Shown piece by piece: positions 4,758 through 30,465 of a stretch of DNA of 64,000 bases. Under the pieces are notes generated by a model. That model ran no database searches. It was not told the DNA's origin and worked only from the letters and a program-made list of their open reading frames with translations. Within the stretch, counting starts at the first letter, position 1; each line of letters starts with the position of its first letter. Source of the stretch: Thermoanaerobaculaceae bacterium (lineage in GTDB: Bacteria > Acidobacteriota > Thermoanaerobaculia > Multivoradales > UBA5704); assembly GCA_963717295.1 (NCBI GenBank), contig OY970330.1, positions 5,227,717 through 5,291,716 on the forward strand, given 5' to 3'. A program made the position numbers and the translations under genes.

Positions 4758-5519
4758 CTAGAACTTGTACTCGCGACCCTGCTCGAGAAAGGAGATGTCG
4801 GGGTTGCGCAGCAGCCCGATCTCCTCCTTGATCTTCTCGACGCAGGGGGGCTTCAGATGGTGGATGAGGATGGGGACCCGCTTCTGCAGCTTCCTCAGCT
4901 CGATCTCCAGGGTGCGGGGGGTCAGGTGCAGGGAGACGTCCGCCACCTGCTGCAGGGAGTTGTCGAAGCTGGTGTCGATGCAGAGGGCCTTCAGGTTCGG
5001 GGTGCGGTTGGCGATCTCCCAGAAGCGCTGCGTGGGCCCGGTATCGCTCGACCACAGCACCGCGGCGCCGTTCTGCTCGATGAGAAAGCCATGGGTGGGC
5101 ACCAGGTGGTCCACCGGGATGGGGGTGAACTTGACGCCGTCGATCACCACCGGCACCTCGCTCTCGAGCTCCAGGAAGCGCACCGCCGGCAGCAGGTGGT
5201 TGGGCAGGCGGGTGAAGTCCGGCCAGGTGGCGTTGTTGAACAGGTACTTGCGCAGAGCGTAGACCGTGGGGGACGAAGCGTAGATGTCGATCGCCCCAAC
5301 GCTCCGGCCGAAGACGTTCTCGATGAAGAACGGCAACGAGTTGGTGTGGTCCATGTGCGAGTGGCTGAGAAGGATGGAATGCACCCCCACCTGCCGCTCG
5401 ATGGAGAGGGACTGGGAGAGCGATCCGGCGTCCAGTGCGATCGTGCCGTTGATCAGCAGGCAGGTCATCCTGCACTCCAGGCTCTCGCCGCCGTAGCCCC
5501 CTAGCACCTGGATCAGCAT
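4758..5519 (-). CDS. MBL-fold hydrolase, class-II cyclic-nucleotide phosphodiesterase-like
   Basis: LSHSHMDH motif plus downstream His/Asp residues. 253 aa. Confidence 0.7.
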   Translation of the reverse strand: MLIQVLGGYGGESLECRMTCLLINGTIALDAGSLSQSLSIERQVGVHSILLSHSHMDHTNSLPFFIENVFGRSVGAIDIYASSPTVYALRKYLFNNATWPDFTRLPNHLLPAVRFLELESEVPVVIDGVKFTPIPVDHLVPTHGFLIEQNGAAVLWSSDTGPTQRFWEIANRTPNLKALCIDTSFDNSLQQVADVSLHLTPRTLEIELRKLQKRVPILIHHLKPPCVEKIKEEIGLLRNPDISFLEQGREYKF

Positions 5520-5591
5520 ATATAGAAACAGGATTGTATCTCTCGCCTGCCCGAGGAAACAAGCGCGGCGGCGGGAGACGGCGGGAGACGC

Positions 5592-5615
5592 CCCCTCTCT
5601 TTTGCGAGAGAGGGG
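5592..5615 (-). terminator. stem-loop ccccctctct-tttgcg-agagagggg downstream of the PAP2 gene
   Basis: Perfect 9-bp stem just after the 5635 stop of the minus-strand gene. Preceded by tandem ggcgggagac x2. Confidence 0.45.
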
Positions 5616-5634
5616 ACGAATTCTTGCGAGCGGC

Positions 5635-7248
5635 TTACGGGCAGGAGAACGCCGAGGTGTCCTGCACCGGCGTGTAGGCCTGACCCTTCGGGTTGAAGTA
5701 GGTACGCGTTTCGCCGGTCTGGGTGTCGGTCACCCGGAGCACGACCTCGACGTCGGTGAGGCCGCTGGCGAACACCCAGAAGTGATTGTTGACGGCGCAG
5801 CCATTCAGCACCTTCACCGACAGCTCGATGTTGTCGGGGCTGAAGAACCAGAACTGGCCGAAGTTGTTCGTCTCCGGCAGGGCGTGGCCGGGAGCCGAGC
5901 CGCTCTCGATTCCGATGAACGTACGCCAGACGGACTGCACCTTGAACCGGCTGTTGTCGAGGCACAACGCGGACGGGGTCTGGACGCAGGCGCCGGGGGC
6001 CGTGACCGGCGTCAGGTTGTTGTAGAAGATCTGCTCGCCCAGGGAACGGCCGGTGGCCTGACCCGCCGAGTTGTCGAACTGCCAGTGGATGCCGCCGAAA
6101 ATCCGGCTCTGCCCCGCCTCCAGGGCTGCCTGCGTGAAGCTGGTGTAGGAACGCTGGACGCCCGGCAGCCCGTCCGAGGTGCTGGTGAAGTTGAACAGGT
6201 CGTTGCCGAAGAACAGGCCCAGAACACGCGCCGCCGCCGCGCTGAAAACGCTATGCCCCGAGAAGTAGGAGGGGTGGTTGGGCGTCGAGAGCAGCGGCGT
6301 CCAGGTGGTGTCGGGAGCGGTGTTGGGGTTGCCGTCCAAGTCCGCCTCGCGGATGCCGGTGATGGGCCGCCAGAAGTTGTAATAGTACTTGGCCTGCCAG
6401 GCGGCGGTGGCGGCGTCGGCCTCCGCGATTCCCAGCAAGGCGAAGAGGCGGGCGTTCTGGATCAGGCTCAGATTCTGGGAGAGCGCGACGCCGCGGGCAA
6501 TGAGGAACCAGTGTCCGGGCGGGGTGGCGGTGCCGCCGCCGTCGGCCCAGAAGAGAGCGGTCTGCGTCTGGTCCGCCGTGCGGGCGGCGCTATCCGACTT
6601 ACCCACCAACTTCACCTCGTTGAAGGCGGCCTCGTAGGCCGCCGAGGCCGGCGGCGGGGGCGGCGCGGGCCGAAAGCGCGTGAGGTCGTCGACGCCCCAG
6701 GCCGTGACCGCCGGCCAGCCGGGAAGCAGCGGCTCGGCAAACCCCGGAGGCGTCTTCACCCACCACAGCGCCCCGGTCGGGAAATTGCCCGTGGCCACGT
6801 CGCCCGAGTGGTCGTTGGCGCGCAGGGCCAGAATCTGGGCGGCCACCGTTTCGCCCCAGGTGACGCCCAGGGTCTTGGCCGCGCCGGGAGGAATGGAGCT
6901 CAGCGAGGTCGTGTACTCGCCGTCGAGAAACGTCTGTTGAGCCGGGAAAAGGGTCACCAGGACTTTGTGGGCGGCGGCGGCGGCGGCGGCCTCCGGCGAA
7001 GCGCCGGACGGCGCCGTAGCCGTAACGAAGTAGGGGGTGTATCCGCCGACGATGCCGTTGACGGCGTCGAAGACCGCGACGTGGACGAGAGCCAGGGTCC
7101 GGCCTGCCTTGGGCGGCGCCGTCCTGTCCGTCCGGATGCTTCCTGCCGTGAGGTTGACCCAGTCGGTGATGACGTCAGCGCGGACGGGCCCGGCGACGCC
7201 GAGCAGGGCCGCGGCACAGAGCCCCGAAATGATGATTTTACGTAGCAT
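5635..7248 (-). CDS. secreted PAP2 / vanadium-dependent haloperoxidase-like protein with extra C-terminal beta-domain
   Basis: Signal peptide. PAP2 motifs K-x6-RP (KYYYNFWRP), PSGH (YFSGHS) and SR-x5-H-x3-D (SRIFGGIHWQFD). Extra ~120-aa C-terminal domain (RFKVQSVW...FWFF...VKVLNGC). Confidence 0.75.
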   Translation of the reverse strand: MLRKIIISGLCAAALLGVAGPVRADVITDWVNLTAGSIRTDRTAPPKAGRTLALVHVAVFDAVNGIVGGYTPYFVTATAPSGASPEAAAAAAAHKVLVTLFPAQQTFLDGEYTTSLSSIPPGAAKTLGVTWGETVAAQILALRANDHSGDVATGNFPTGALWWVKTPPGFAEPLLPGWPAVTAWGVDDLTRFRPAPPPPPASAAYEAAFNEVKLVGKSDSAARTADQTQTALFWADGGGTATPPGHWFLIARGVALSQNLSLIQNARLFALLGIAEADAATAAWQAKYYYNFWRPITGIREADLDGNPNTAPDTTWTPLLSTPNHPSYFSGHSVFSAAAARVLGLFFGNDLFNFTSTSDGLPGVQRSYTSFTQAALEAGQSRIFGGIHWQFDNSAGQATGRSLGEQIFYNNLTPVTAPGACVQTPSALCLDNSRFKVQSVWRTFIGIESGSAPGHALPETNNFGQFWFFSPDNIELSVKVLNGCAVNNHFWVFASGLTDVEVVLRVTDTQTGETRTYFNPKGQAYTPVQDTSAFSCP

Positions 7249-7395
7249 TTGATCCCTCTCTTCTAAGACTATGGGAACGAATTCCCCCTCCGAGATGCGG
7301 GGAAGGGCTAACTACTGTTGAAACGCTTCACAAGAATACAAGATGAAGCCCTGTCACACCAGAGGAGAGAGCCGGAAAGCCCGGTGGAGCGGGCT

Positions 7396-8013
7396 TCAGC
7401 CGTGAACCGTGGGGGAGACGCCCAAGCCCCGCGCGAGCTTGGCCTCGAGCTCGCGCCAGCCGAGGAAGCGCGCGGCGAGCGCCTCGGCCTCGACCTCGCG
7501 GCCGGCGAGCTTGTAGAAGAGCTCCCAGTGGCGGCGTTCCGCGGGGCCGAGATCGGCGAGGAGGCTCGCGACCTCCGGATCCTCGACGACCTCCAGGAGC
7601 CGGGTGAACCGCTCGCAGCTCCGCGCCTCGACGAGAGCGCCGAAAAGCAGGCGGTCGACCTTCGTCCAGGCATCCCGCCCGACAATCCGGTCTCTCAGGC
7701 TCTGGACCCAGGGATTCTTCCGCCGTCCCCCGAGCGGCCACCCCCGCTGCTTCAGGATCGCCACCACCCGCCGGAAGTGCTGCACCTCCTCGGCCGCCAG
7801 AGCCGCCACCCGTTCGACAAGCTCGAAATCCTGGGGGTAGTAGCTGGCGAGCGACAGGGCATAGATCGCCACTTGCTGCTCGCACACCGCGTGATCGGCA
7901 AGGAACTCCGGAAGGTTCGCCGCCGCCAGCTCCGCCCACGAGCGAGGCGTCGGATGAAGGAGGGGAAGAGCGGCGTAGACCTCTTCATAGCCGGTTGGCT
8001 CGGGAAAGTTCAT
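7396..8013 (-). CDS. miaE: tRNA-(ms2io6A)-hydroxylase MiaE (ferritin-like di-iron)
   Basis: MNFPEPTGY...FLADHAVCEQQVAIYALSLASYYP...EEVQHFRRV matches the MiaE pattern. True ATG at 8011-8013. The 381-aa ORF-track version is a spurious upstream extension. Confidence 0.7.
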   Translation of the reverse strand: MNFPEPTGYEEVYAALPLLHPTPRSWAELAAANLPEFLADHAVCEQQVAIYALSLASYYPQDFELVERVAALAAEEVQHFRRVVAILKQRGWPLGGRRKNPWVQSLRDRIVGRDAWTKVDRLLFGALVEARSCERFTRLLEVVEDPEVASLLADLGPAERRHWELFYKLAGREVEAEALAARFLGWRELEAKLARGLGVSPTVHG

Positions 8014-8030
8014 AGATCGACCGCCGCCCC

Positions 8031-8890
8031 CTACCGCAACCAATCCTCCAACTGCACCCGCACGTCCGTCGAAGCGTCGCGATACTTGACGATCACCGGG
8101 GTGTAGAGGGAGAGCCCCCAGTCCTTCCCCGCTCCCTTGGTCACCGCCCGGGAGCCGGGCACCACGACCGCCTCCTCGGGAATCACCAGCGGCTGATCGT
8201 CCGTGGCCCTGTGGATGGTCTCGCGGACGAGATCGTAGACGGGGGTCGAGCGGGTGAGGATGGTGCCGGCTCCCAGGACGGCTCGGCGCTTCACGACCGT
8301 CCCTTCGTAAACGCCGCAGTTGCCGCCGATCAGAACGTCGTCCTCGACGATCACCGGCGAGGCGCCCACCGGCTCCAGCACTCCGCCGAGCTGCGCGGCG
8401 GCGGAAAGGTGGACGCGCTGGCCGACCTGGGCGCAGCTCCCCACCAGGGCGTGCGAGTCGACCAGCGTGCCGTCGCCCACCCAGGCGCCGGCGTTGATGT
8501 ACATGGGCGGCATGCAGATCACTCCGCGGCCCAGATAGCACCCGTCACGGATCGACGAGCCGCCTGGCACCACCCGCACGCCATCGCCCACCACCAGCGG
8601 CCGGGGAGGATAGGTCGCCTTGTCGAGGAATGGCAGGCGCACACCCGTCTCGCTGCTCCAACGGACATGTCCACGATCTCGCCCATGCGGAAACCGATGA
8701 GGATCCCCTGCTTCACCCACGGGTTCACCCGCCAGCCCGTGGGAGAGCCCGCATCCGGCTCGGCGGCGCGGATCTCGCCGCGGTTGAGCGCCTGCTTGAA
8801 GTGCTCGAAGAGAGTGCGCTCCTCCAGGCCGTAGGCGGCCGGCGGCTCGGCGTAGAGGCGCTCAATGTCCGCCTGCAGATCAGACGGCAA
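8031..8890 (-). pseudogene. dapD: 2,3,4,5-tetrahydropyridine-2,6-dicarboxylate N-succinyltransferase, frameshifted
   Basis: N-terminal part [17 protein letters not shown]...[11 protein letters not shown] is in one frame (8890 down to ~8665). The hexapeptide-repeat C-terminal part (...[11 protein letters not shown]...[11 protein letters not shown]...) is in another frame. The two meet at ~8655-8670. Confidence 0.7.
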
Positions 8891-9821
8891 GCCGGGCCTC
8901 CGCCTCCAGCGACTCGGACTCAGGGCTCTCGGGGATCAATCCCAGATTCAGGAGGATCTTCTCGATCTTCGCCACACTCTCCGCCTTGGGGAAGACCGCC
9001 GGCAGCCGGAGGACCGGCTCGATCAGCCCCATGAGCCCGAGAGCCGCCTTCACCGGACCGGGATTGGACTCTACGAAGTTGATCTCCATCAGCGGGATGA
9101 AGCCGGCGCTGCATCTCGCGCGCGGCCGGGAAATCCCCTTCCAGGCAGAGCGAGGTCAGCCGCGCCATGGCGTAAGGGCACCTCGTTGGAGACCACCGAG
9201 ATGATGCCGACGCCCCCCAGGGCGATCAACGGCAGCGTGATGGCGTCGTCGCCGGAAAGCACCGCGAAGCTCTCGGGCACCGCCTGGAAGATGGCCGCGA
9301 TCTGGGAGATGTTCCCCGACGCCTCCTTCACGCCGACCACCGTCTCGATCTCGGCCAGCCGCTCCAGCGTCGCCGGATCGACGTTCATGCCGGTGCGGCC
9401 GGGCACGTTGTAGACGATGATCGGCAGCCGCGTGGCCTTGGCCACCTCGCGGTAGTGCTGATAGAGCCCCTCGGGCGTGGGCTTGTTGTAGTACGGAGTG
9501 ACGACCAGCAGGCCGTCCGCCCCCAGCCCTTCGAGGTCGCGGGCGAGCTCGACCACCTCGCGGGTGTTGTTGCCGCCGCAGCCGGCGAGCACGGGAGTCT
9601 TGCCCTTGCGCCTCTTCCAGGGTGATCTCGACCACCCGCAGATGCTCCTCGCGGGTGAGAGTGGGGTTCTCGCCCGTGGTGCCGCAGGGGACGAGGAAGT
9701 GGATGCCGGCCTCGATCTGGCGGCGCACCAGACGGCGCAGGGCCTCTTCGTCGAGCGAGAGGTCGGACCGGAACGGAGTGACCAGCGCGGTGCCGCATCC
9801 TTGAAACATGGTTGTCTCCAT
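8880..9821 (-). pseudogene. dapA: 4-hydroxy-tetrahydrodipicolinate synthase, split over three frames
   Basis: N-term (FQGCGTALVTPF...VPCGTTGE), middle (AGCGGNNTREVVELARDLE...YNVPGRTG) and C-term (ESNPGPVKAALGLMGL...) segments are each recognisable but lie in different frames. At least 2 frameshifts. Confidence 0.7.
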
Positions 9822-9860
9822 GACGCGCCCGGTGGAAGGAGAGTGCGGCGCGCGTCCGAA

Positions 9861-10584
9861 TCATTCTAAGCCGGTTCGCCGGACGATCTGTTCCCAAACC
9901 TCGCTGAACTCGTAGAAACCCTCGCGTCCGATCATCCAGCGGGCGGCGCGCAGGGCGCCGTGGGCGAAGCCGGCCCGGCTGCGGGCGCGGTGCTCCAGGG
10001 TGATCGTGTCCGCCTCGGAGTCGAAGCCGATCTGGTGCGTGCCCGGGATCGATCCCGCCCGGTTGCTGGCGACGTCGATGGGCCGCGACTACCCCGCCTC
10101 CTCCATCACCCTCTTGATCTCCAGCAGCGTGCCCGAAGGGGCGTCCTTCTTCTTGCTGTGATGGATCTCGTAGGCCCAGGCGTCGTAGGCCGTCTCCTGG
10201 GCCAGCAGGCGCGCCGCGGCCGCGGCGAGGCGGTAGAAGACCATGCACGCCGACCGAGAAGTTGGCGCCATGGAGCAGGCGCGCCGTCGCAACGTTCGAC
10301 CGCCTCCCGCACCGCGGCCAGCTGTCCTGCCAGCCGGTCGTGCCCACCACCAGGGGTACGCCCGAGCGCGGCGAGCCGCTCGGCGTTGGCCGGCAACGGC
10401 GCCGGCGACCGAGAAGTCGATCGCGACATCGACCCCCTCGAAGCGCTCCGCCGTGATGCCCGCTCCCCCGGCGTTGTCCGCCCCCGCGAGCCGCACCACC
10501 ACCTTGAAACCGTGCGCCGGAGCGAGCTGCTCGACGAAGCTTTCCCATCTGGCCGTAGCCGATCAGAGCGAGACGTCGCTTCAT
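9861..10584 (-). pseudogene. dapB: 4-hydroxy-tetrahydrodipicolinate reductase, at least 4 frameshifts
   Basis: MKRRLALIGYGQMGK / ITAERFEGVDVAIDFS / VPLVVGTTGW...GANFSVGV / YEIHHSKKKDAPSGT / SIPGTHQIGFDSEADTITLEHRARSRAGFAHGALRAARW are all found, but they alternate between frames. Stop at 9861-9863. Confidence 0.7.
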
Positions 10585-10599
10585 TCCACCACCTCATCA

Positions 10600-11965
10600 A
10601 TGTCCACCACGGAAGAAGCTCCTCGTGGAGGGCCGCGACCAACTCGGGGAGATCCTCCTCGTCGGCCAGCAGGCGGACGGTCGGAGCGGCGACACCTTGC
10701 AACACCAGCCGCGGCTCGAAACCGGCGCCCGCGGCGAGAGCCCGCTCCACCAGCTCCGGCGACGTCGCGAAATCCTCCGAGACCAGCGACACGACGCACC
10801 GGCCGCGATGGTCATCCAGACCTCGGCGGAGCTGCCCACGGCCGCCAGCAGCGCCGCGTGGACGTCGGAGAGCCGGTCCTCCGATCGAGAGCGAGCTCGC
10901 CCTTCGGCGTCGAGCGTCAGGAGTGCCGGCCGGAAACGCTCGCAGACCTCCTCGAGGCTCGGCGAACAGCCCTTCCCCATCCTTGGAATCCGTGGCGAGC
11001 GCGGAGATCGAGATGCGCGTTGGACCGGCAGGCGATCGACTTGACGACCGGCGGCGCCTCCGGATCGCGGCGGCCGATGATCGTGCCCTCCGCCTCCGGA
11101 TGCCGGGAGTCCAGAATGCGGATCGGGACGTTCGCCCGGCTGGCCGGCCCCAGCGTGCCGTAGTGCGGCTTCTTGGACCCCGAGCAGGAGAGCTCCAGCG
11201 CCTCGGCGAACGAGAGCGTGCGCACCCGCCGGGCTCCCGGGTAGAGCCGGCGGATCGGCGGTGCGCATGCCGTCCACGTCGGTCCAGATCTGCACCTCCT
11301 CCGCGCCCAGGGCGGCGCCGACGATGGCGGCGGAGAAGTCCGAACCCTCCTTGCCGAGCGTCGTGGTCACCCCCTGGAGATTGGCGCCGACATAGCCGCC
11401 CACCACCGGCACCGTACCCTGCGCGCAGCAGCGGCAGCAGGGCCGAGCGCATGCGGGCGTTCGTCGGGCCGTAGATCGGCCGGGCGCGGGTGAAATCGTC
11501 GTCCGTCACCATCACCCGCCGGCAGTCCACCCAGGAGGAGTCGATGCCGGCGTGAGAGAGAGCGAACGAGAGAATGGCGCTCGCCAGCAGCTCGCCGTAG
11601 CCCGCGATCGTATCGGCCGCCTTGGGCGAGAGCGAACGGGCCGCCATGATCTCGTCGAGCCGCGTCCGCAGCTCGTTGAACCACGGATCGAGCATCGCAT
11701 CCAGAGCCGGCCGGCCCCCGGGAGGCACCACGGCATAGGCCTCGCGCCGGTGATACAGCTCGATCTGATCGAAGGCGGAATGGACCCTCTCCGCATCCCC
11801 CGCGGCCGCCGCGGCGGCGCCCGCCAGGAGATTGCGCGTCGTCAGCGCCATCGCCGACACCACCACCACTGGCTGGCGCTCCTGCCGGCCGCGGATGATC
11901 CCGCGCACCCGGCCGATCGCCTCGGCATCGTTGACCGAGCTGCCGCCGAACTTCATGACGATCAT
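10600..11965 (-). pseudogene. lysC: aspartate kinase, multiply frameshifted
   Basis: MIVMKFGGSSV N-terminus at 11965. The VVGGYVGA..TTLGKEGSDFSAAIVGAALGAEEVQIWTDVDG, LSFAEALELS...NVPIRIL and ACT-domain pieces lie in different frames. The exact 3' end near 10600 is uncertain. Confidence 0.6.
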
Positions 11966-11972
11966 GGGAGGG

Positions 11973-13022
11973 TCATCCGATCAACCCCTCACTCTTCATC
12001 ATCTCCGCGTTCAGCACCGCCGCCCCGGCCGCGCCGCGCAACACGTTGTGCGAGAGCGCCGCGAACTTCCAGTCGAGGACGTTGCACTCCCGGAAGCGGC
12101 CGACGGCCGTGGCCATCCCCTGCTCGATGCCGGCGTCCTTGCGCACCTGCGGGCGGTCCGGCGCGTCCATGAGGTGGATGGGCCGCTTCGGCGCCGAGGG
12201 GAGATTCCGCTCCTGGGGGAGGCCCGAGAAGGCGGCGAGGGCGGCCAGCAGCTCCTCGCGGCTCGCCTTCCGCTCCAGCTCGACGCTCGCCGTCACCAAG
12301 TGGCCGTCGATCGTGGGCACCCGGTTGCAGTTGGCGCTGACGAGGAAGGGGAGGGGCTGGATGCGGTCCCCGTCGAGATCGCCCAGGATCTTCTGCGTCT
12401 CGCTCTCGAGCTTCTTCTCCTCGTCGCCCCCGATATAGGGAATGACGTTGCCCAGGATGTCGAGCGACGGCACGCCGGGGTAGCCGGCGCCGGAGACGGC
12501 CTGGAACGTGGTGACCAGGACCTTCTTGATGCCGAACGGCTTCAAGGCGGCGAGCGGCATCACCAGCACCACGGCGGCACAGTTGGGATTGGTGACGAGG
12601 CTGCCCGTCCATCCCCGCTCGCGGCGTTGCGTGGCGAGAAGCCCGAGATGGCCGGGATTGATCTCCGGCACCAGCAGCGGCACGTCCGCGGCCATGCGGT
12701 AGTGGCTGGAGTTCGAGACCACGATATGGCCGGCGGCGGCAAAATCGCGCTCGATCTCCCCCGCCAGACTGCCGGACATGGACGAGAACACCAGCCGCGG
12801 CCCCTTCCCCGGAAGGCACTCCTCGACCGTCCGCCCCGCCGCCTCCGCGGGAGGAGGCCCCTCGAGCTGCCATGACGTCGCCTCCCGGTACACCTTCCCC
12901 GCGCTACGGTCGCTCGCCGCCAGCCACGTCGCCTTGAACCAAGGATGGTTCTCCAAGAGCTGAATGAAACGCTGCCCCACCGTCCCGGTGGCGCCCAGAA
13001 TGCCGACCTCGATCTTGTCCAT
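11973..13022 (-). CDS. asd: aspartate-semialdehyde dehydrogenase (intact)
   Basis: MDKIEVGILGATGTVGQRF...SNPNCAAV... 349 aa. ATG at 13020-13022. The 520-aa ORF-track version is an upstream extension. Confidence 0.85.
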   Translation of the reverse strand: MDKIEVGILGATGTVGQRFIQLLENHPWFKATWLAASDRSAGKVYREATSWQLEGPPPAEAAGRTVEECLPGKGPRLVFSSMSGSLAGEIERDFAAAGHIVVSNSSHYRMAADVPLLVPEINPGHLGLLATQRRERGWTGSLVTNPNCAAVVLVMPLAALKPFGIKKVLVTTFQAVSGAGYPGVPSLDILGNVIPYIGGDEEKKLESETQKILGDLDGDRIQPLPFLVSANCNRVPTIDGHLVTASVELERKASREELLAALAAFSGLPQERNLPSAPKRPIHLMDAPDRPQVRKDAGIEQGMATAVGRFRECNVLDWKFAALSHNVLRGAAGAAVLNAEMMKSEGLIG

Positions 13023-13184
13023 GCCCTCTCCACTCCGCAGCGACGTGGGCGCGGAGGCCCGCCACGGAGTGGGACAGTTTACCGGGTGTGGGGGCGGGAG
13101 GCCATGGCCGGGAGCTGCCGGAGTGGTGAGGGTCCCCGGCAACCCGAGAGAGCCCGGATTTTGACCCGTCGGCTGCCCATCGTA

Positions 13185-13217
13185 GAGACGCCCACGGGGT
13201 ACCCCGTGGGGCGTCTC
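13185..13217. promoter_or_regulatory. 32-bp near-perfect palindrome gagacgcccacgggg-ta-ccccgtggggcgtctc about 165 bp upstream of asd
   Basis: 15-bp arms with a single extra G. Intergenic between asd and the DUF433 remnant. Confidence 0.3.
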
Positions 13218-13335
13218 AATCGGAGCGTCGCGCTTCCCGTTGTCCGGGTCATCCTGGGGCGCGTCCTCCTCGGTGTTCATGCCGTTCAGGTGGCGGTGAA
13301 GATCTCGCCTCTTTAGAGTCCATCCCAGCCATGAT

Positions 13336-13599
13336 TCAGGCTGCTTCATTCTCCTGGATCTGCTGCTCGGTCTCCTCCCGATGGCCGCGGTAGAAGGACC
13401 AGGCATTGGCCAGATCCTCGGCCCGAAGAGATGGGTACGACCGCAGGAGCTCGGCCTCACTCGTCCCCTACCTCCTCGCCTGGACCAGCAACCACACTGG
13501 GATCCGGGTCCTGACGATGCAAGGGTCGCCTCCACAGACCTCTGGATTGGACTGGATACCCGGGTAACTGTCTCCGAGGTCGCGCAGAAGCTTGGTCAT
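13336..13599 (-). pseudogene. DUF433-family small protein with in-frame amber codon
   Basis: MTKLLRDLGDSYPGIQSNPEVCGGDPCIVRTRIPVWLLVQARR-TAG-GTSEAELLRSYPSLRAEDLANAWSFYRGHREE matches DUF433 across the TAG at 13468-13470. Same frame on both sides. Confidence 0.55.
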
Positions 13600-14005
13600 C
13601 CAAGATCGTCCTCAGCCGGATGATATCTCTCTGGGAGCCCCGGCGGAATCGCACTCGGTCTCCCCTGCCGGGCCATCGCGTCGAGCACGGGCCTGCTTGA
13701 ACCTTCCAGTTTTGGGAACTACCATTCCCAATATGAGAATTGAGCTGGCCCCGAGGGATCGACGGGCTGGTTCGCTCCGCACGGAGCCGGCTCAGGGACG
13801 CTGACGGTCGGATCTTGCCAAGGAGAGCCGTTTCGACCTCGCCGGGGACCTTCGAGCTGCCAGCCATGGCCTTCGTCCGCCTAAACTCCTCGCCTGCCAG
13901 CCGCAGACACTACAAAACGGGGATTGAGGTATAGAATTCAGAGGCAGGGGCCCAGGTCAAGGCGCTAGAGCGTCGAAGCCGGCTGGCAAGAAAGTAGAGG
14001 ACCAG

Positions 14006-14224
14006 ATGACTCAGTTACTCGAACAGGCATTCACCAAAGCATCGCAGCTTTCTTCCGAAGAGCAGGACACCCTTGCCTCGCTCATCCTAAAAGAGATCGA
14101 AGCCGATCAGCGTTGGGACGACGCCTTCGCAAAGAGCCAGAATTCTCTTTCCCGGTTCGCCGATGAGGCGCTGGCCGAGCATCGGGCGGGCAGGACCAAG
14201 CGGCTCAATGTGGACAATTTGTGA
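14006..14224 (+). CDS. type II antitoxin (addiction-module component paired with a RelE/ParE-family toxin)
   Basis: 72 aa, MTQLLEQAFTKASQLSSEEQDTLASLILKEIEADQRWDDAFAKSQNSLSRFADEALAEHRAGRTKRL is a typical cyanobacterial-type antitoxin. ATGA overlap with the next gene. Confidence 0.6.
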   Translation: MTQLLEQAFTKASQLSSEEQDTLASLILKEIEADQRWDDAFAKSQNSLSRFADEALAEHRAGRTKRLNVDNL

Positions 14225-14490
14225 TTTCCTACACAACGGACGGATTCTGGAAATCTTACAGAAGGCTAACTGAAGCGGTCCGGAAGCAGGCGCGAGAGCG
14301 CTTATCGGCAGTTCGAGAAGAATCCTCATCATCCGAGCCTGCACTTCAAGCGGGTCCACTCAAGCAGACCAATATACTCGGTTCGAGTGAATCTGGATTA
14401 TCGAGCAGTGGGCATAAGAGATGGCGAAGAGATCGTCTGGCACTGGATAGGTCCCCACGACGAATATGAGAAGTTGATCGGACGGATGTA
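14221..14490 (+). pseudogene. RelE/ParE-family toxin with +1 frameshift near 14300-14310
   Basis: Frame 1 gives MISYTTDGFWKSYRRLTEAVRKQARERLSAV. From 14306, frame 2 gives RQFEKNPHHPSLHFKRVHSSRPIYSVRVNLDYRAVGIRDGEEIVWHWIGPHDEYEKLIGRM, the canonical toxin C-terminus. Stop at 14488-14490. Confidence 0.6.
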
Positions 14491-14499
14491 GACGTTGGC

Positions 14500-14830
14500 G
14501 GTTTGCATTGAAGGAGCTCCATACCTTGTCCGGGTCGGAATTGCCAGGATGATACTTGGATGCCTCAGAGAGGGCTTTGCAAGGCCGGCTCGGGGCACAC
14601 CTCCCCCAAGCGAGCACCAGGCTCGGCATGGCCCTCCGGCGGGCGATGAGGCTGTCAAAGAACCTAGCCGCTCCTCTATCCAGCCACGAACGGTAAAGCC
14701 GGCGGGAAGCATCCGGCAGGAAACGGCGCGCGCCGATCTCCTCGCCTCAACCGCTCGGACGCCTCCCGAAAGGCGCCGACGAAGGCGGCATAGATCTCGT
14801 AGAGAATAGGAGCCAGAGTCTTTCGGCCTG
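14500..14830 (-). repeat. copy A (inverted) of a ~260-330 bp module: conserved 3' coding end plus ~100-bp trailer
   Basis: Minus strand encodes ...LYEIYAAFVGAFREASERLRRGDRRAPFPAGCFPPALPFVAG-stop, then trailer ...ggttctttgacag...cgcccgccggagggccatg.... Homologous to 25241-25590 and 25911-26290. The end of one arm of the agtcttctaataagactctggctcc hairpin lies at 14806-14824. Confidence 0.6.
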
Positions 14831-23374: not shown

Positions 23375-23495
23375 GGAAACCCTCCCCAGGACATTCTCCT
23401 ATTGAAGACAGCGTATGTTAGCACGGGCGTGGGGGTCTTGCGCGTCTCTCGGACCCTAGGTGACCCCAGGCGCGGGCTTTCCCTGGGCGCCATTC

Positions 23496-23849
23496 TCATT
23501 CCTTGCGCCGATAAACCCAGGCCTTCAGCGCCTCCAGATTCAGGGGCTCGGGAGCGTCGAGGCGTATGGGCCTTACGCAGATGTCATGATCCGGAAAGCT
23601 CGCCGCGACCTCGCCCTCGATGTCCATGGATGTTTCAAATTCATCATCTCCGATTTCGCCGTCAAAAAAGAGATTGGCCCAGATGCTTCTATCCTCCCAG
23701 CCCACGGTTACGCCCCGAAGATGGCTGGTGACCATCCCAAGCAGTGAAACCTGAAACGCGAGGAGCACTCCTTGCCGAAAATCTACGTCCTCATCCGTCA
23801 TTCGATGACCTCCAGGTCCCAGGGCCGCGCCCGGTTTCCAAAATGCCAC
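23496..23849 (-). CDS. acidic hypothetical protein (likely start at 23801, MTDEDVD...)
   Basis: ~100-aa acidic ORF (FFDGEIGDDEFETSMDIEGE) in lower-GC island. No recognisable domain. Confidence 0.3.
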   Translation of the reverse strand: MAFWKPGAALGPGGHRMTDEDVDFRQGVLLAFQVSLLGMVTSHLRGVTVGWEDRSIWANLFFDGEIGDDEFETSMDIEGEVAASFPDHDICVRPIRLDAPEPLNLEALKAWVYRRKE

Positions 23850-23956
23850 TCTGCATCCGGAAACTGATCGAGTGCGTCATTGAGAATGCTCTCGACTATG
23901 GCTCATGGGCGCGACCTCAAGCCCGTCAACAGCTCGTACACAGAGCTCCACTCCCC

Positions 23957-24110
23957 TTACCTTAGCGCGGCAAGGCCCAACTGAATCGCGTTTTCGACGG
24001 TTTCATACTCCTCTTCGGCATCGAACTCCGGGTGTCCGCCACCCTGCCGCCCTCCACGGAAACGATGACGTAGTGTAGGACAATCCCGGCCACGCGTGCT
24101 CGCGGTCGAC
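23957..24110 (-). pseudogene. 3' fragment of a JAMM/MPN (Mec+-like) gene, paralogous to 34574-35038
   Basis: ~83 bp (24038-24120) nearly identical to 34661-34743 and encoding ..YVIVSVEGGRVADTR... A divergent, frame-shifted C-terminus (PEFDAEEEYETVENAIQLG versus RERFEEEEIVSG) follows. Confidence 0.5.
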
Positions 24111-24401
24111 GGAATCGAGCTGATGGATCCGGGCAAGCGCCGCGACCGGTTGACCGTCTGGCTGGCAGGTGAGCTTCCGGCACGGTTCGCCGGGCGCATT
24201 CTCGACGTCGACTCTCGCATTGCCGACGCCTGGGGAGTCGTCATGGCTCGTGGACAAAAAGCTGGACTGAATCTGAGATCCATGGACGCCTTCTTCGCAG
24301 CCACCGCGGAGGTCCACCGGTTGACACTGGTTACCCGCAATGTCGAGCACTTCAAAGAGTTGGGCACTCCTCTCGTGAATCCGTGGCAAGGAAGCTCATA
24401 A
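24111..24401 (+). pseudogene. VapC (PIN-domain toxin) C-terminal two-thirds, no N-terminus and no vapB
   Basis: GIELMDPGKRRDRLTVWLAGELPARFAGRILDVDSRIADAWGVVMARGQKAGLNLRSMDAFFAATAEVHRLTLVTRNVEHFKELGTPLVNPW aligns to VapC residues ~45-130. Directly abuts the JAMM fragment. Confidence 0.55.
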
Positions 24402-24408
24402 CAGGGAC

Positions 24409-24924
24409 ATGAGGCTGGCCCAAAAAATTCAGTCGTTCGCCGACCGGAGCGATGCCTTGTTGGACGAGCTGGAGGCGATGGAGCCCGGCAAGCTCCACGC
24501 CAGGCCTCTGCCGGGAAAGTGGACCATCCTGGAGATCGTCGAGCACATCGTCCTGGCGGAACGGGTGGTCCTCCAAGGGCTCCCCGAGCCCTCCCAGCTT
24601 CAGGCCGTCAAGCCCGGCCTGAAGGACCGCGTCCGCTATCTGCTCGTCCTGTTCGTCTTGAGGGCCAACATCCCTGTGGGAGTCGGCTCCCCGGCAGGCA
24701 ACCGGGACCTGGCCGAGCTTCGCGGCCTCTGGAACGAAGACAAGGCCTGGGTGTTGGCCTACGTCACCCGCTTCGGATCCCGGGGTCTCAAAAGAGCCAT
24801 CCTGCACCACCCCGTGACCGGCCCGATCAACGTCAAGCAAGCCATCACTCTGAGCCGAGCCCACCTCGACCGGCACATCCGTCAAATCCGAAGGCTTCAG
24901 CGGCTTACCACACCAGTCTTCTAA
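24409..24924 (+). CDS. DinB/YfiT-like (DinB_2) putative metal-dependent hydrolase
   Basis: 171 aa with the DinB_2 pattern GKWTILEIVEHIVLAER. The ORF ends ...LQRLTTPVF immediately before the hairpin agtcttctaataagact (24914-24935). Confidence 0.55.
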   Translation: MRLAQKIQSFADRSDALLDELEAMEPGKLHARPLPGKWTILEIVEHIVLAERVVLQGLPEPSQLQAVKPGLKDRVRYLLVLFVLRANIPVGVGSPAGNRDLAELRGLWNEDKAWVLAYVTRFGSRGLKRAILHHPVTGPINVKQAITLSRAHLDRHIRQIRRLQRLTTPVF

Positions 24925-24960
24925 TAAGACTCTGGCTCCCTACGCTAAGCTGCCCCTCAG

Positions 24961-25235
24961 ATATCTGGGGATGACGGCTCGTATCCATAGATACGGTCCA
25001 TATCTGGGAACGATGGCTCATATCCACAGATACGGCCCATATCCCCGGATGACAGTCCATCATCTCCAGACACGCGGCATATCTGGGGATGACAGCTCGT
25101 ATCCACAGATACAATCCACATCTCGGGGCGATGGCTCATATCCCCAGATACGGCCCATATCCGCGGATGACAGGCCATCATCTCCAGATACGCGGCATAT
25201 CTGGGGATGATGGCGTATATCCCCAGACAATGGCC
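24961..25235 (+). repeat. tandem array of seven 39-40-bp degenerate repeats (organised as a ~118-bp unit x2.3)
   Basis: Units ATATCTGGGGATGACGGCTCGTATCCATAGATACGGTCC / ...GGGAACGATGGCTCATATCCACAGATACGGCCC / ATATCCCCGGATGACAGTCCATCATCTCCAGACACGCGGC repeat in the same order. Contiguous, with no unique spacers. Confidence 0.75.
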
Positions 25236-25240
25236 AAATC

Positions 25241-26290
25241 GCACGCCGCTACCAAAGCCGCGCGCAGAGCGTTCTACGAAATCTACGCCGCCTTCGTCGG
25301 CGCCTTCCGGGAGGCGTCCGAGCGGTTGAGGCGAGGAGAGCGGGGCGCGCCGTTTCCTGCCGGATGCTTCCCGCCGGCTTTACCGTTTGTGGCTGGCTAG
25401 AGGGAGCGGGACAAGGTTCTTTGACAGTCGCATTGCCCGCTGGAGGGGCCATGTCGCTGAGCTCGGTTGCTCGCTTAGGGAAAAGTGTGCCCTTTTCACC
25501 CATGAAGAATCGTTCTCAGAGGCTTTGGCCGCCAGTTTGTTTGCCCGACGGCCTCCAAGAAAACGCGGCCTACCACGCCTACAGCGGCCTACCACGCCAG
25601 TCTTCTAATAAGACTCTGGCTCCTATTTCGGCGCAACCGACAACTTGGAGTTTGCCGCCCGCCTTCGCGGTAAAGATGTCGGACCGATTCGCTATGCCAC
25701 GGTCGAGACGGTAACTTTTTCTCCCATACCTTGCTGGGCCCATCTGTCGCCTGAAGTCTATCGGGCCCGGAACGTGGAGATGGTCGAATCCATCGAGGCC
25801 GAAGCTGCGCGGGAAAGAGAACGCACCGGCGCCTGCGTGCTCGGAGCCAAAGCCATTCTTGCCAGCGATCCGCTCCATCGCCCATCCTCCTTGGCCCGAT
25901 CGCCAGCACCTTGCGTCCACGCCGCCACAAAGGCTGCAAGGAGAGCGTTCTACGAAATCTACGCCGCTTTCGTCGGGGCCTTTCGGGAGGCGTCAGAGCG
26001 TCTGAGGCGCGGCGACCGCAACGCACCCTTCCCCGCCGGCAGCTTCCCGCCAGCCCTACCTTTCGTCGCTGGATAGAGGCATCGCCGATGCTCTTTGACA
26101 GTTTCACCGCCCACCGGAGGGCCAGATTCCGAGGCGAAGGCCCGCGAAAGGGGGAACGTGTATCCGGTCAGGCTCTCTTGAGAGGTTTCCAGAGCACCAA
26201 ACTGCCCCCGGCCAAGTTTCGAACCAGCCCAATGGGGCTGGCCTTCAGGAAGTCACTGGCACTTGTTTGGCCGGGCCTGCAGCGGACGGC
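25241..26290 (+). repeat. copies B (25241-25590) and C (25911-26290) of the conserved 3'-coding module plus trailer, separated by a second copy of the hairpin repeat (25591-25622)
   Basis: Both encode ...AATKAARRAFYEIYAAFVGAFREASERLRRG(E/D)R.APFPAG.FPPALPFVAG-stop. DNA differences between copies are mostly synonymous. Copy C retains ~90 upstream codons (MEFAARLRGKDVGPIRYATVETVTFSPIPCW...). Confidence 0.6.
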
Positions 26291-26386
26291 TAACGCCTCA
26301 CGCTGAGGCGCTCAAACATAGAGCTATCAACCCAAAGTTGAAGCGGCAGCCCAAAGAATAGGCCCTCGCATGATCGCTATCAAGCC

Positions 26387-27085
26387 TCAATGTGGCGCCT
26401 TTGAGGGCAGTACAGTCGTCGCTTTGCTTGTATTCTGGCGTACCACTCTGAATGTAATAGAATCCAGAGACACCCAGCTTGGGTTGCCTTGCTCAAGGAT
26501 GACCTCGCCACTACTCAAGATGTCGACACGACCGTACGCATTCGGATAAGTCGAAACTACAAACAATTGACGGAAATTCGGTCGATAATCGATTGGCAAC
26601 GTAAAAATCGCACCACCCCTCCCTTCCACAAGACCTCGTAGATGAACCAGCCCGAATGAGTCTTTGAAAAAACTAGGAGGGTTATAGGGGGTCTCGCTAT
26701 TTTTTTCATAAGGCTTCCACCCTTGGGCAAGTTGAGGAGCGATCCAATCATCGTCAAGCTTGAGATCTTTAAGCCTCTTAGCCGCTTGGTCTCTATAAGT
26801 GCTCACGGCGTCGGAGTCCTCCTTCACACGAGTCAAGGCGCGATTGGCTTCCTCGACATATCCCTGGCCAATTGAGGATCTGACAGCCTCGGCTGCAGCC
26901 GTTTTGGCTTGACTCTTTATCATCTGGGAAATACCAAGCGCGCCAGCCAGGGAAAGAACCAACGCCACAAACGCAAGGACCCCAATGGACTGATTACGCG
27001 CTTTCTCGGCCTCGCTCCTAGCTTCATCCTTCGCCTTCGTGACCTCACGTTCAATCGCTAGCTGGATTTCTGGCAATATGTCCAT
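26387..27085 (-). CDS. hypothetical single-pass membrane protein with coiled-coil region
   Basis: 232 aa, TM helix IGVLAFVALVLSLAGALGI. Lower GC. Same strand as, and downstream of, the Shedu-like gene. Confidence 0.45.
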   Translation of the reverse strand: MDILPEIQLAIEREVTKAKDEARSEAEKARNQSIGVLAFVALVLSLAGALGISQMIKSQAKTAAAEAVRSSIGQGYVEEANRALTRVKEDSDAVSTYRDQAAKRLKDLKLDDDWIAPQLAQGWKPYEKNSETPYNPPSFFKDSFGLVHLRGLVEGRGGAIFTLPIDYRPNFRQLFVVSTYPNAYGRVDILSSGEVILEQGNPSWVSLDSITFRVVRQNTSKATTVLPSKAPH

Positions 27086-27247
27086 TCATCCTCCAGTATT
27101 TTCTGCGGCCAACGCTGTGGCGGCTCAGCGCGCGGCGCCAGCTGTCCGCTGGAGCCGCTTGGTTGGCCGAATCAAGGTCGCCTGCTCGCACATATGGCTA
27201 TGGCTCCACTGCGCTGCCTTTCTCCCACTCTATAAGGGGCCCACCGG

Positions 27248-28306
27248 CTAGCCCACAGAGCCGAGCCTTCGCATCCACCCTTCAAGTAAGGCATCGTACG
27301 TCATGATTGTGATTCCATTGAGGCTGTTATTCATCTCGTCGAGCCGGATTCGATCACCAAGTGAAAGGTCCGCTCGTCTGCCGGCTATTATTCTGAAAGA
27401 GCAAGACAACCGCTCATGCATTACGCTGCTCAACATCTCGGAATATAAGCCAGAGAGGCTTCTCGTTGATCTTATTTTTCTCGACGCTGCTAGATCTTCC
27501 GTCATGAAGGACTCCACCGTGTGCCTGAAGTACTCGCCATTGCGCGAATGCCATGCCTTCCAGTCTTGAACCTGTCGGAGAGCATGCGTTAAAACCGCCG
27601 CAGGATCGCCTGCTTTCGTAAAGAGCTTACGCGACGGTTTCTCCAGCTCTATCAAGGTCGCGTGGATTCCCACGTCGTTTGTCCAAGTGCGATAGCCAAG
27701 CACCACAAAGTCCGTGACGAAGCTGTTTCCTAAGGGACACTTACTGAGAGCATATCCTCCTTCGTAGAATAGATCTAGAAGAAATGCGTTTGACCATAGA
27801 AATCTGTGAACTTCTTCTTCTGAGCCTTGCAAGCAACGATCAAGCTCCATGAGTACGGACCTGATGCGACGAGCGCTGGCCGTCTCCTCGTCCTCCATCT
27901 CGTCGAGGTAGGTGACCATATCGCCCGCAGCTTTAGATGTGATGTGTTGCATGTACCGACGCTTACGCGGCCGATTATCGAGCACATCGTCGGACCAAAC
28001 GGCGATTTTTACATCCTCCCTCGAACCGCCACTCGGTAAATAAGAATCAAGCAGACGCCCCCTCGATACTAGGCAATATGAATCGATCACTCTGACGTCG
28101 TAGGCGCGACACAACAGCGGGCTGTCCTCGATGTAAGCGATGAAGAACGACCATCTTATGCGCATCAACTCGGCTAAGCGGCGGTTCGTTGACTCGTGGA
28201 GGGAAGATGTACGTCGCTCGGTGAAGAAGATAAGCGCCGTCTCCACATCTTCCAGTTGGGTTTCAAAGGTCGCGTCGTTCAGCACTTTGAATTCGGTTAG
28301 AGTCAC
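27248..28306 (-). CDS. Shedu-like protein (DUF4263 PD-(D/E)xK nuclease domain)
   Basis: 352 aa, GTG start 28304-28306. C-terminal core ...GNSFVTDFVVLGYRTWTNDVGIHATLIELEKPSRKLFTKAGDPAAVLTHALRQVQDWKAW matches the DUF4263 pattern (D...E-x-K...Q..W). Confidence 0.6.
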   Translation of the reverse strand: MTLTEFKVLNDATFETQLEDVETALIFFTERRTSSLHESTNRRLAELMRIRWSFFIAYIEDSPLLCRAYDVRVIDSYCLVSRGRLLDSYLPSGGSREDVKIAVWSDDVLDNRPRKRRYMQHITSKAAGDMVTYLDEMEDEETASARRIRSVLMELDRCLQGSEEEVHRFLWSNAFLLDLFYEGGYALSKCPLGNSFVTDFVVLGYRTWTNDVGIHATLIELEKPSRKLFTKAGDPAAVLTHALRQVQDWKAWHSRNGEYFRHTVESFMTEDLAASRKIRSTRSLSGLYSEMLSSVMHERLSCSFRIIAGRRADLSLGDRIRLDEMNNSLNGITIMTYDALLEGWMRRLGSVG

Positions 28307-28509
28307 GGTTACGCCTATCCTATCCTAGTGTATGTTCGGCAACGTCACCAGCAGTGATCATAGCCTGACGATCGAGCGGGCCCGGACACTGGCGGCTTTG
28401 CCTTCACCAAGCTCGACTTTTCTTCGTCGGCCAACGCTCGAAGCTAACCGGCGGGATCGTGCGATAGCACGGTATCCGTCCGTTTGAGCGCAGGGGTTGA
28501 ACGACGCTC

Positions 28510-29517: not shown

Positions 29518-30098
29518 GGTGTGTGCTAGCGACGTTCAACCTTTAGCTGATCTTATGCGCACCACTCAAGAATGCTTATCGGCGGCCTATCAGGCCGCCT
29601 GAATCTCAAATATGTAGACTCTAAACTGTTCAATCCATTCGGCTTAGATTTTACGCCGATTTCTTAGGCTCGTCAATGCGGCGGCGATCCGTCGTGTGGG
29701 CATCCGGGGCAGCCTTTACGTAGTACTCCATCAAGGATCGTCCTAACTCGTTGAAAGGATGAGACTCAGGCTGGCTTTAGTCGGATAGGCCGACCCGCAA
29801 AAGGCGCTTAGGCGACGGCGCTATACATTCCAGGGCGAGGCGGGAGCGAAGACGGAAGCCATTTATTTCTAGCAGCTTGGAGCGAAGGATGGCGAATAGG
29901 TCGAGGGTGTCGTATAGGTCCGAAGCGGTCGGCTAAGCAGGGCGCTCAAGGAACGCTAAGTACTCCCCACCGTAAGTCACCTGACATATCCTGCCGGAGG
30001 AGTCGGCCGGTGACCCAGCCTATCAGCGAGCATCCTCGACTTCCTTCTCTCTTCGATACCCACGTCCCGGGGACAGACTGACCGTCACGCCGGGCCAA

Positions 30099-30312: not shown

Positions 30313-30409
30313 TTGGGCCGGCGTGGCACCAGCGCCGACGCGAGTCATCAACCTTTGCGACGATGGAGGCGAGACCCAGGAGGGGCCGGCTGGGGCGGTC
30401 TTGCGGGTC

Positions 30410-30449
30410 TCCCCTCTTCTCCCGGGGGTGGGAAGCCGGGAGAAGAGGG
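30410..30449 (-). terminator. strong hairpin cccctcttctcccgg-gggtgggaag-ccgggagaagagggg 3' of htpG
   Basis: 15-bp perfect stem 17 nt after the htpG stop. Member of a 3-copy hairpin family (also at 55040-55078 and 57722-57775, all ending in GTGATGAGG). Confidence 0.5.
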
Positions 30450-30465
30450 GTAGGAGTGATGAGGC

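What the first reader, a model, noticed from the sequence alone, without database searches (positions are those of the whole stretch)
8031..11965. Four consecutive lysine/DAP-pathway genes (lysC, dapB, dapA, dapD) carry about ten frameshifts while flanking asd and miaE are intact
Every conserved segment of aspartokinase, DapB, DapA and DapD is present and recognisable, but each gene switches frame 1-4 times within ~3.9 kb. The neighbouring asd (1050 nt) and miaE upstream and downstream are uninterrupted, as are purL and the pullulanase gene elsewhere in the window. Either this is a localized assembly or consensus problem (low coverage, homopolymer errors), or the operon is a genuine multi-hit pseudogene block. 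The latter would imply loss of meso-DAP/lysine synthesis, or a second functional copy elsewhere.
Basis: seen in the sequence. Interest (0 to 1): 0.6.

Follow-up and report, generated by a model that had tools for sequence, protein, structure and literature searches.

The report
Assembly artefact, not broken lysine genes
The frameshifts in the four lysine/diaminopimelate genes are real in this sequence, but they are errors made when reads from a related soil bacterium were mixed into the consensus, so the organism has not lost the pathway.

Summary
On the minus strand, lysC, dapB, dapA and dapD carry about 22 frame-breaking indels (9, 9, 3, 1), all between 8658 and 11422. asd, miaE, purL, the pullulanase gene and htpG are intact.

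The breaks are not biological. After frame correction the four proteins are 88-94% identical to those of relatives, and dN/dS is 0.10-0.19 against 0.09-0.10 in the flanks. The indels are almost all 1-nt insertions outside homopolymers.

An independent k-mer assembly (Logan) of public run ERR11594404 matches the window 100% on both flanks. It also gives a contig with an intact 458-aa lysC and an in-frame dapB start. That contig is identical to the window down to 11513. Beyond that point it lacks every window indel it covers.

It also differs there by 47 substitutions. At 44 of these the window carries the allele of a distant clade (~78% identical). Thirteen of 16 insertion events are that clade's allele placed beside the genome's own allele (control 3.6 ± 1.6).

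The block from 11512 to about 8650 is therefore a chimeric consensus of two populations. Public long-read MAGs of the same clade show the same signature. Interest is low, except as a data-quality warning.

The parts
8658..11512 (-). Chimeric-consensus block. In this stretch the deposited sequence departs from the read-supported haplotype by about 3% substitutions and about 0.8% small indels.
   Evidence: Logan contig L079 is identical to the window from 12421 to 11513. From 11512 on it differs by 47 substitutions and lacks every window indel it covers. The last indel is at 8658. Logan contig L077 is 100% identical from 8097 down to 5220, so the lower edge lies between 8097 and 8658.
10584..11965 (-). 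lysC (aspartate kinase), broken by 9 artefactual indels.
   Evidence: The corrected protein scores 261.8 bits on TIGR00657 against a cut-off of 208.7. The intact 458-aa version is P0095 on L079.
9866..10584 (-). dapB (4-hydroxy-tetrahydrodipicolinate reductase), broken by 9 indels. These include a -1/+1 pair that creates a TAG at 10091-10089.
   Evidence: The corrected protein scores 122.9 bits on TIGR00036 against a cut-off of 122. L079 carries the first 196 residues in one frame.
8880..9821 (-). dapA (4-hydroxy-tetrahydrodipicolinate synthase), broken by 3 one-base insertions at about 9602, 9173 and 9096.
   Evidence: The corrected protein scores 327.7 bits on TIGR00674 against a cut-off of 206.
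8031..8890 (-). dapD (tetrahydrodipicolinate N-succinyltransferase), broken by a single 1-nt deletion at 8658.
   Evidence: The corrected protein scores 286.6 bits on NF008808 against a cut-off of 204.
11973..13022 (-). asd (aspartate-semialdehyde dehydrogenase), intact; the upstream flank of the block.
   Evidence: No private indel, and dN/dS 0.09 against L001. TIGR00978 scores 404 bits. Positions 12421-11973 are identical to L079.
7396..8013 (-). miaE, intact; the downstream flank.
   Evidence: PF06175. It is 100% identical to Logan contig L077.

Best explanation
The window comes from an 8.78-Mb unannotated public contig of a Thermoanaerobaculia (Acidobacteriota) genome, which looks like a long-read metagenome assembly. 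Over about 2.9 kb (window 11512 down to about 8650) the consensus was built from two read populations. One is the genome's own reads. The other is cross-mapped reads of a co-occurring relative that is only about 78% identical in this conserved operon. Where the two populations differ, the consensus step did one of four things. It kept the genome's own base at about 87% of such sites. It took the foreign base at 44 sites. It wrote both bases one after the other, giving a +1 insertion and a frameshift. Or it dropped the base, giving a -1. The real organism has an intact asd-lysC-dapB-dapA-dapD operon, and nothing about lysine or DAP metabolism follows from the breaks. Shown by the data: the indels, their localization, the intact same-run haplotype for lysC and the dapB 5' part, the foreign origin of the substituted alleles, and the tandem-allele nature of the insertions. 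Inferred, not shown: that the step at fault was read mapping or polishing of a long-read assembly, and that the block's edges mark the extent of one or a few foreign reads.
For: (1) Source. Ten window proteins are on record from a single 8,777,251-bp contig (NCBI and ENA, no annotation).
(2) Relatives. Every short-read relative has all four genes intact and 0-4 private indels. The window has 25, all between 8658 and 11422.
(3) Selection. After frame correction the proteins are 88-94% identical to those of L001. dN/dS is 0.10-0.19, against 0.09 for asd and 0.10 for miaE. lysC has 9 frameshifts but only 1 replacement among 328 otherwise invariant residues.
(4) Indel spectrum. There are 19 insertions against 3 one-base deletions, and almost none lie in homopolymers.
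(5) Independent assembly of run ERR11594404. L077 matches window 5220-8097 and L078 matches 13188-14718, both at 100%. L079 matches 12479-9988 and carries an intact 458-aa lysC and an in-frame 196-aa dapB start. It is identical to the window from 12421 to 11513 and then lacks all the window's indels.
(6) Foreign alleles. Of the 47 block substitutions against L079, 44 are the majority allele of a distant clade (44/47 each for L038 and L023), while the L079 allele is usually that of the close clade. The window takes the distant allele at 44 of 333 differing columns inside the block, against 3 of 195 outside it.
(7) Tandem alleles. Thirteen of 16 insertion events are exactly the distant-clade allele of the adjacent variable site (control 3.55 ± 1.63, maximum 10 in 2000 trials). 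The three deletions also sit on such sites.
(8) dapA and dapD. The same pattern holds for the events at 9877, 9602, 9097 and 8658.
(9) Other assemblies. Public Nanopore MAG loci of the same clade show the same signature: L038 has 17 of 17 and L039 has 12 of 18 private +1 insertions equal to another lineage's adjacent allele, against controls of 4-5. Those MAGs were assembled with Flye and given one round of Medaka polishing, from soils with high microdiversity (PMC12313526).
Against: No reads were available, so the two populations were never seen in a pile-up. It is not proven that ERR11594404 is the library from which the deposited contig was built; only that it holds the same strain (100% identity over 4.4 kb of flanks). 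L079 stops at 9988, so for the 3' end of dapB, dapA and dapD the evidence is indirect (allele tracing against relatives). Exact look-ups of the frame-corrected DapA and DapD found nothing. Three insertion events (10813-12, 10576-75, 10281) are not explained by an adjacent foreign allele. asd is as conserved as the other genes yet is unaffected, so the position of the block's edges has no explanation beyond the extent of the foreign reads. The sequencing platform of the source contig is inferred, not known.
Confidence: 0.95

Rival explanations
1. Genuine, recent multi-hit pseudogenization of lysC-dapB-dapA-dapD. The strain would then be a lysine/meso-DAP auxotroph or would rely on copies elsewhere in its genome.
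For: The frameshifts and one in-frame stop are in the deposited sequence. Window-private replacements of otherwise invariant residues are somewhat raised in dapB (4.3%) and dapA (1.9%), against 0.4% in asd. No second copy of these genes lies in the window.
Against: dN/dS equals that of the flanks. The ratio of indels to substitutions and the 19:3 excess of insertions, outside homopolymers, are opposite to what is known of bacterial pseudogene decay, which is deletion-biased and slippage-driven (my own knowledge). An intact lysC and dapB start were assembled independently from a run holding this strain. The raised replacements are alleles of another clade. The insertions are foreign alleles written next to the genome's own.
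Confidence: 0.02
2. Ordinary random long-read error: an unpolished or very low-coverage stretch carrying single-read-quality sequence, or homopolymer or methylation-motif errors, with no second population involved.
For: The indel density (about 0.8%) is of the order of raw-read error. The errors are patchy, as in other long-read MAG loci. The source study reports residual Nanopore errors in low-coverage MAGs.
Against: Random error would not give 44 of 47 substitutions matching one specific foreign clade. It would not give 13 of 16 insertions matching that clade's adjacent allele. Only one or two events extend a homopolymer, and no shared motif is visible.
Confidence: 0.03
3. A natural recombination mosaic. 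DNA from a distant relative recombined into this operon, and patchy mismatch repair left scattered donor alleles and indels.
For: Donor-like alleles are confined to one block with a sharp upper edge at 11512.
Against: Only 13% of the differing sites carry the donor allele, scattered singly over at least 1.4 kb. That would need dozens of separate conversion tracts. Recombination at about 78% identity is very inefficient (my own knowledge). Mismatch repair cannot write both alleles in tandem. The same-run assembly lacks the mosaic.
Confidence: 0.01
4. Programmed recoding: ribosomal frameshifting or transcriptional slippage restores the proteins.
For: None beyond the fact that all the segments are conserved.
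Against: About 22 sites of mixed sign (+1, +2, -1), with no slippery heptamers or homopolymer tracts. Indels also occur in the non-coding dapB-dapA spacer. All relatives lack them.
Confidence: 0.002

Closest known systems
Indel and frameshift errors in long-read (Nanopore, Flye plus Medaka) metagenome-assembled genomes, including consensus errors caused by co-assembled or cross-mapped related populations
   Same: ORFs of conserved genes are broken in an otherwise good, very long contig. The errors are patchy. The same insertion-only signature is seen in public Microflora Danica long-read MAG loci L038, L039 and L007 of the same clade. That pipeline used one Medaka round on soils with high microdiversity (PMC12313526).
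   Different: The errors usually discussed are homopolymer-length errors in low-GC genomes. Here the genome is 68% GC and the errors are outside homopolymers. They can be traced base by base to a second population: a foreign allele is substituted, or written in tandem with the genome's own.
Genuine pseudogene blocks in genomes undergoing reduction (for example Mycobacterium leprae or recent host-restricted symbionts; my own knowledge)
   Same: Several adjacent genes each have multiple frameshifts and a stop, with recognisable remnants.
   Different: Real decay brings relaxed selection, deletions larger and more frequent than insertions, and slippage-prone contexts. Here dN/dS is like the flanks, insertions outnumber deletions 19:3, and an intact copy is assembled from the same run.
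The asd-lysC-dapB-dapA-dapD (succinylase-branch) lysine/DAP operon of Thermoanaerobaculia
   Same: The gene order and, after correction, the full-length proteins match L046, L001 and dozens of other relatives.
   Different: Nothing biological. Only the deposited consensus differs.

Membership tests
Genuine multi-hit pseudogene block | The disruptions are present in the organism's DNA, that is, supported by independent read evidence. | tested here: not met
   Logan contig L079 comes from run ERR11594404, which matches the window 100% on both flanks. It has an intact 458-aa lysC and 196 in-frame residues of DapB, and lacks all the window indels it covers. dapA and dapD are not covered.
Genuine multi-hit pseudogene block | Relaxed selection since inactivation: raised dN/dS, with substitutions far outnumbering indels. 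| tested here: not met
   dN/dS is 0.10-0.19 against 0.09-0.10 in the flanks. lysC has 9 frameshifts but 1 replacement among 328 invariant residues.
Genuine multi-hit pseudogene block | A natural indel spectrum: deletion bias and homopolymer or repeat contexts. | tested here: not met
   There are 19 insertions against 3 deletions, and one or two events in homopolymers.
Mixed-population (chimeric) consensus artefact | The aberrant stretch has sharp limits, and the flanks are identical to an independent assembly. | tested here: met
   The window is identical to Logan contigs at 12421-11513, 8097-5220 and 13188-14718. Divergence starts at 11512.
Mixed-population (chimeric) consensus artefact | The substituted bases are alleles of another population, scattered among the genome's own alleles. 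| tested here: met
   44 of 47 substitutions are the distant-clade majority allele. The window takes that allele at 13.2% of differing columns inside the block and 1.5% outside it.
Mixed-population (chimeric) consensus artefact | The indels sit on sites that vary between the two populations, and the insertions equal the other population's allele. | tested here: met
   13 of 16 insertion events fit this, against a control of 3.55 ± 1.63. All three deletions are on such sites. The same holds for 9877, 9602, 9097 and 8658.
Mixed-population (chimeric) consensus artefact | Two read populations are visible in the pile-up over the block. | not testable with these tools
   No read data or mapping tool was available.
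Lysine/DAP pathway genes (LysC, DapB, DapA, DapD) | The full-length protein reaches the curated NCBIfam cut-off. | tested here: met
   After frame correction the scores and cut-offs are: TIGR00657 261.8 against 208.7; TIGR00036 122.9 against 122; TIGR00674 327.7 against 206.15; NF008808 286.6 against 204.

The most novel reading that the evidence does not exclude
The frameshifts are real in a minor sub-population. A lineage of this soil acidobacterium would have very recently inactivated its only lysC-dapB-dapA-dapD operon through a local, insertion-biased mutational burst, and would live as a lysine/meso-DAP auxotroph beside an intact sister strain.
Probability: 0.01. Interest if true: 0.55.

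Novelty: not a real feature. Interest (0 to 1): 0.05.

Why it matters
Biologically it does not matter: the operon is intact in the organism. It matters for data quality. Taken at face value, the deposited 8.78-Mb contig would lead to the prediction that a free-living acidobacterium cannot make lysine or meso-DAP. The same artefact occurs in other public long-read MAGs of this clade, with up to about 19 spurious frameshifts in 5 kb. It has a recognisable fingerprint: clusters of +1 insertions outside homopolymers that duplicate a variable site, accompanied by scattered alleles of a related species. That fingerprint could be used to flag and repair such patches without reads.

Tried and rejected
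- Looking up asd by exact sequence to find the source contig returned nothing. The cluster look-up later showed the 8.78-Mb contig.
- Exact look-ups of the window's broken ORF fragments showed them only on that contig, never in Logan.
- Twelve exact look-ups of my frame-corrected sequences found nothing: DapA, full-length and 3'-truncated DapD, LysC and DapB, in several variants. For LysC the reason became clear afterwards: the true protein differs from my correction by three real substitutions.
- A homology search with corrected DapA found intact relatives from other runs only, for example L080 from SRR16915453. It found no contig of ERR11594404, so dapA and dapD have no direct same-run evidence.
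- Searching the literature and the supplements of PMC12313526 for ERR11594404 gave nothing. The link between that run and the deposited contig, and the sequencing platform, remain inferred.
- Homopolymer or methylation-motif error: rejected after inspecting the indel contexts.
- A stretch of unpolished single-read draft sequence: considered, then superseded by the allele tracing.
- A tblastn result that seemed to show one uninterrupted lysC HSP was an artefact of a 624-codon open wrong frame in this high-GC DNA.
- A lysine riboswitch upstream of asd: none at Rfam gathering thresholds.
Full report
**What is in the sequence.** On the minus strand the window carries asd (13022-11973), lysC (11965-10584), dapB (10584-9866), dapA (9821-8880), dapD (8890-8031) and miaE (8013-7396). 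Three-frame translation shows every conserved segment of the four middle genes, but spread over changing frames. A frameshift-aware protein-to-DNA alignment against the closest relative's proteins, DNA alignments with 8 and 23 relatives and a comparison with a same-run contig give these counts:

| Gene | Frame-breaking indels | Positions |
|---|---|---|
| lysC | 9 | 11422, 11251, 11008, 10964, 10905, 10883(-1), 10813-12(+2), 10610, 10602 |
| dapB | 9 | 10535, 10394, 10364, 10328(-1), 10281, 10245, 10090(-1), 10086, 9877 |
| dapA | 3 | ~9602, 9173, 9096 |
| dapD | 1 | 8658(-1) |

The in-frame TAG in dapB at 10091-10089 comes from the -1/+1 pair at 10090 and 10086. Three more small insertions lie in the non-coding dapB-dapA spacer. 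PurL, the pullulanase and HtpG match their NCBIfam models end to end. A codon-usage Viterbi frame plot of all 64 kb, followed by inspection of every same-strand frame change, found no other broken gene among the high-GC genes. After frame correction the four proteins pass the curated cut-offs for aspartate kinase, DapB, DapA and the N-succinyltransferase DapD.

**Where the window comes from.** asd finds 44 loci in reference genomes and 32 in JGI metagenomes, almost all Thermoanaerobaculia (Acidobacteriota) from soils. The closest is L046, at 91.7% nucleotide identity with the same gene order and all four genes intact. Ten window proteins are on record from one unannotated NCBI/ENA contig of 8,777,251 bp. 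That size points to a long-read assembly; the platform itself is my inference.

**Why this is not decay.**
- Relative to 8 relatives the window has 25 private indels. Nineteen are insertions, three are 1-nt deletions, and the rest are pieces of an in-frame 12-nt gap at the dapD N-terminus. All lie between 8658 and 11422, and none lies in the 2.9 kb of aligned flanks.
- Each relative has 0-4 private indels over the same stretch.
- With the indels removed, identity to the proteins of L001 is 88-94%. dN/dS is 0.10-0.19, against 0.09 for asd and 0.10 for miaE.
- lysC has nine frameshifts but a single replacement among 328 residues that are invariant in the relatives.
- A gene that had drifted long enough to collect nine frameshifts should carry dozens of such replacements. 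Natural indels are also deletion-biased and concentrated in homopolymers (my own knowledge). Here insertions dominate and only one or two events extend a homopolymer.

**Direct evidence from an independent assembly.** The protein collection also holds genes called on Logan contigs, which are k-mer assemblies of single public sequencing runs. Three contigs of run ERR11594404 belong to this strain.
- L077 equals window 5220-8097 at 100%.
- L078 equals window 13188-14718 at 100%.
- L079 (2477 nt) was found by searching with my frame-corrected LysC (P0095, 99% identical, 458 aa). It covers window 12479-9988.

L079 encodes the end of asd, an intact lysC and the first 196 residues of DapB in a single frame. 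It is identical to the window from 12421 to 11513. From 11512 on it lacks every window indel in lysC and dapB, and it also differs by 47 substitutions.

**The mechanism.** Those 47 substitutions are not noise.
- At 44 of them the window carries the majority allele of a distant clade of Thermoanaerobaculia, about 78% identical (L038 and L023 each match 44 of 47). L079 matches the close-clade majority (L045, L046 and others) at 30 of the 47 sites and the distant-clade majority at only 2.
- Inside the block the window takes the distant allele at 44 of 333 columns where that clade differs from L079 (13.2%). Outside the block the figure is 3 of 195.
- Of 16 insertion events relative to L079, 13 are exactly the base that the distant clade has at the adjacent variable site, so the window holds both alleles in tandem. 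At 11008, for example, L079 has CTC-GTC, the relatives have CTC-ATC, and the window has CTC-G-A-TC.
- A control with random positions gives 3.55 ± 1.63, and never more than 10 in 2000 trials.
- The three 1-nt deletions also sit on such variable sites.
- L079 does not reach dapA or dapD. There the events at 9877, 9602, 9097 and 8658 show the same relation to alleles of the relatives.

I conclude that over about 2.9 kb the consensus was computed from the genome's own reads plus cross-mapped reads of a related species. The block's edges probably mark the extent of one or a few foreign reads. That last point, and the identification of polishing as the step at fault, are inferences.

**The same artefact elsewhere.** In the same five genes, public Nanopore MAG loci of this clade carry 18 (L038), 19 (L039) and 4 (L007) private frame-breaking indels. 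Nearly all are +1 insertions outside homopolymers, and they occur in patches. Most short-read assemblies of relatives have none, and none has more than two. In L038, 17 of 17 private +1 insertions equal another lineage's allele at the adjacent site; in L039, 12 of 18 do, against controls of 4-5. Those MAGs were made with Flye and one round of Medaka from soils with marked microdiversity (PMC12313526).

**Rivals.** Genuine pseudogenes, random low-coverage or homopolymer error, a natural recombination mosaic and programmed recoding are each contradicted by at least two independent results. Together I give them about 5%.

**Caveats.**
- No reads could be inspected.
- It is not proven that ERR11594404 is the library behind the deposited contig.
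- L079 covers only lysC and most of dapB.
- Three insertion events are not explained by an adjacent foreign allele.
- I cannot say why the block starts inside lysC rather than in asd.
- The rest of the 8.78-Mb contig was not available.

**Verdict.** It tells us nothing about lysine or DAP metabolism in this organism. Its only value is as a recognisable fingerprint of mixed-population consensus errors in long-read MAGs.

Noticed in passing
Unlike the DAP block, this base is present in the independent Logan contig L078 (100% identical over 13188-14718), so it looks read-supported and may be a real toxin pseudogene.
   Followed up: partly
L038 (CAWBWZ010000023.1), L039 (CAWAUI010000004.1), L007 (CAVQIV010000012.1), asd-dapD region of each locus: Public long-read MAGs of the same clade carry 18, 19 and 4 private frame-breaking indels in the same five genes. 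Nearly all are +1 insertions outside homopolymers. In L038 (17 of 17) and L039 (12 of 18) the inserted base equals another lineage's allele at the adjacent site. The mixed-population consensus artefact therefore seems widespread in these assemblies.
   Followed up: partly
window 23400-30400: A low-GC stretch (53-62%) holds a Shedu-type gene (SduA_C, 27248-28306, -), an Mrr_cat restriction-endonuclease-domain gene (28510-29517, -) and a DinB_2 gene (24409-24924, +). It looks like a small defence island.
   Followed up: partly
window 14673-14803, 25273-25403, 25949-26079; 24961-25240: Two 131-nt inverted repeats (95% complementary) bracket about 10.5 kb, and a third, more diverged copy follows. 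Next to them is an array of five 44-nt units spaced 39 and 79 nt apart, each containing a GTATCC-N-AGATAC-like palindrome. Copies of the 131-nt element also occur in L001. This may be a mobile element or its protein-binding sites.
   Followed up: no
window 30436-33140 versus 7396-13600: In all relatives (L001, L007, L012, L038 and others) the htpG segment lies 1-3 kb beyond miaE. In the window it lies 17 kb away, on the other side of asd. The miaE-PAP2 junction and the asd-upstream region up to 14718 are backed by Logan contigs L077 and L078. The junction near 30.4 kb was not checked, so this could be a real rearrangement or a misassembly.
   Followed up: no
window 54754-54810 (-) and 43054-43146 (-): An Acido-Lenti-1 sRNA match (43.2 bits, gathering score 37) and a tRNA-Ser(gct). 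No lysine riboswitch was found upstream of asd at gathering thresholds.
   Followed up: no
L079 positions 48-58 (window 12432-12422): Near its end, Logan contig L079 has three bases that differ from the window. At the first and third the window's base is the one nearly all relatives carry (10/12 and 12/12); at the second the relatives are split. One difference extends a G run. This is probably a tip error of the k-mer assembly, and it hints that the run consists of noisy reads.
   Followed up: no
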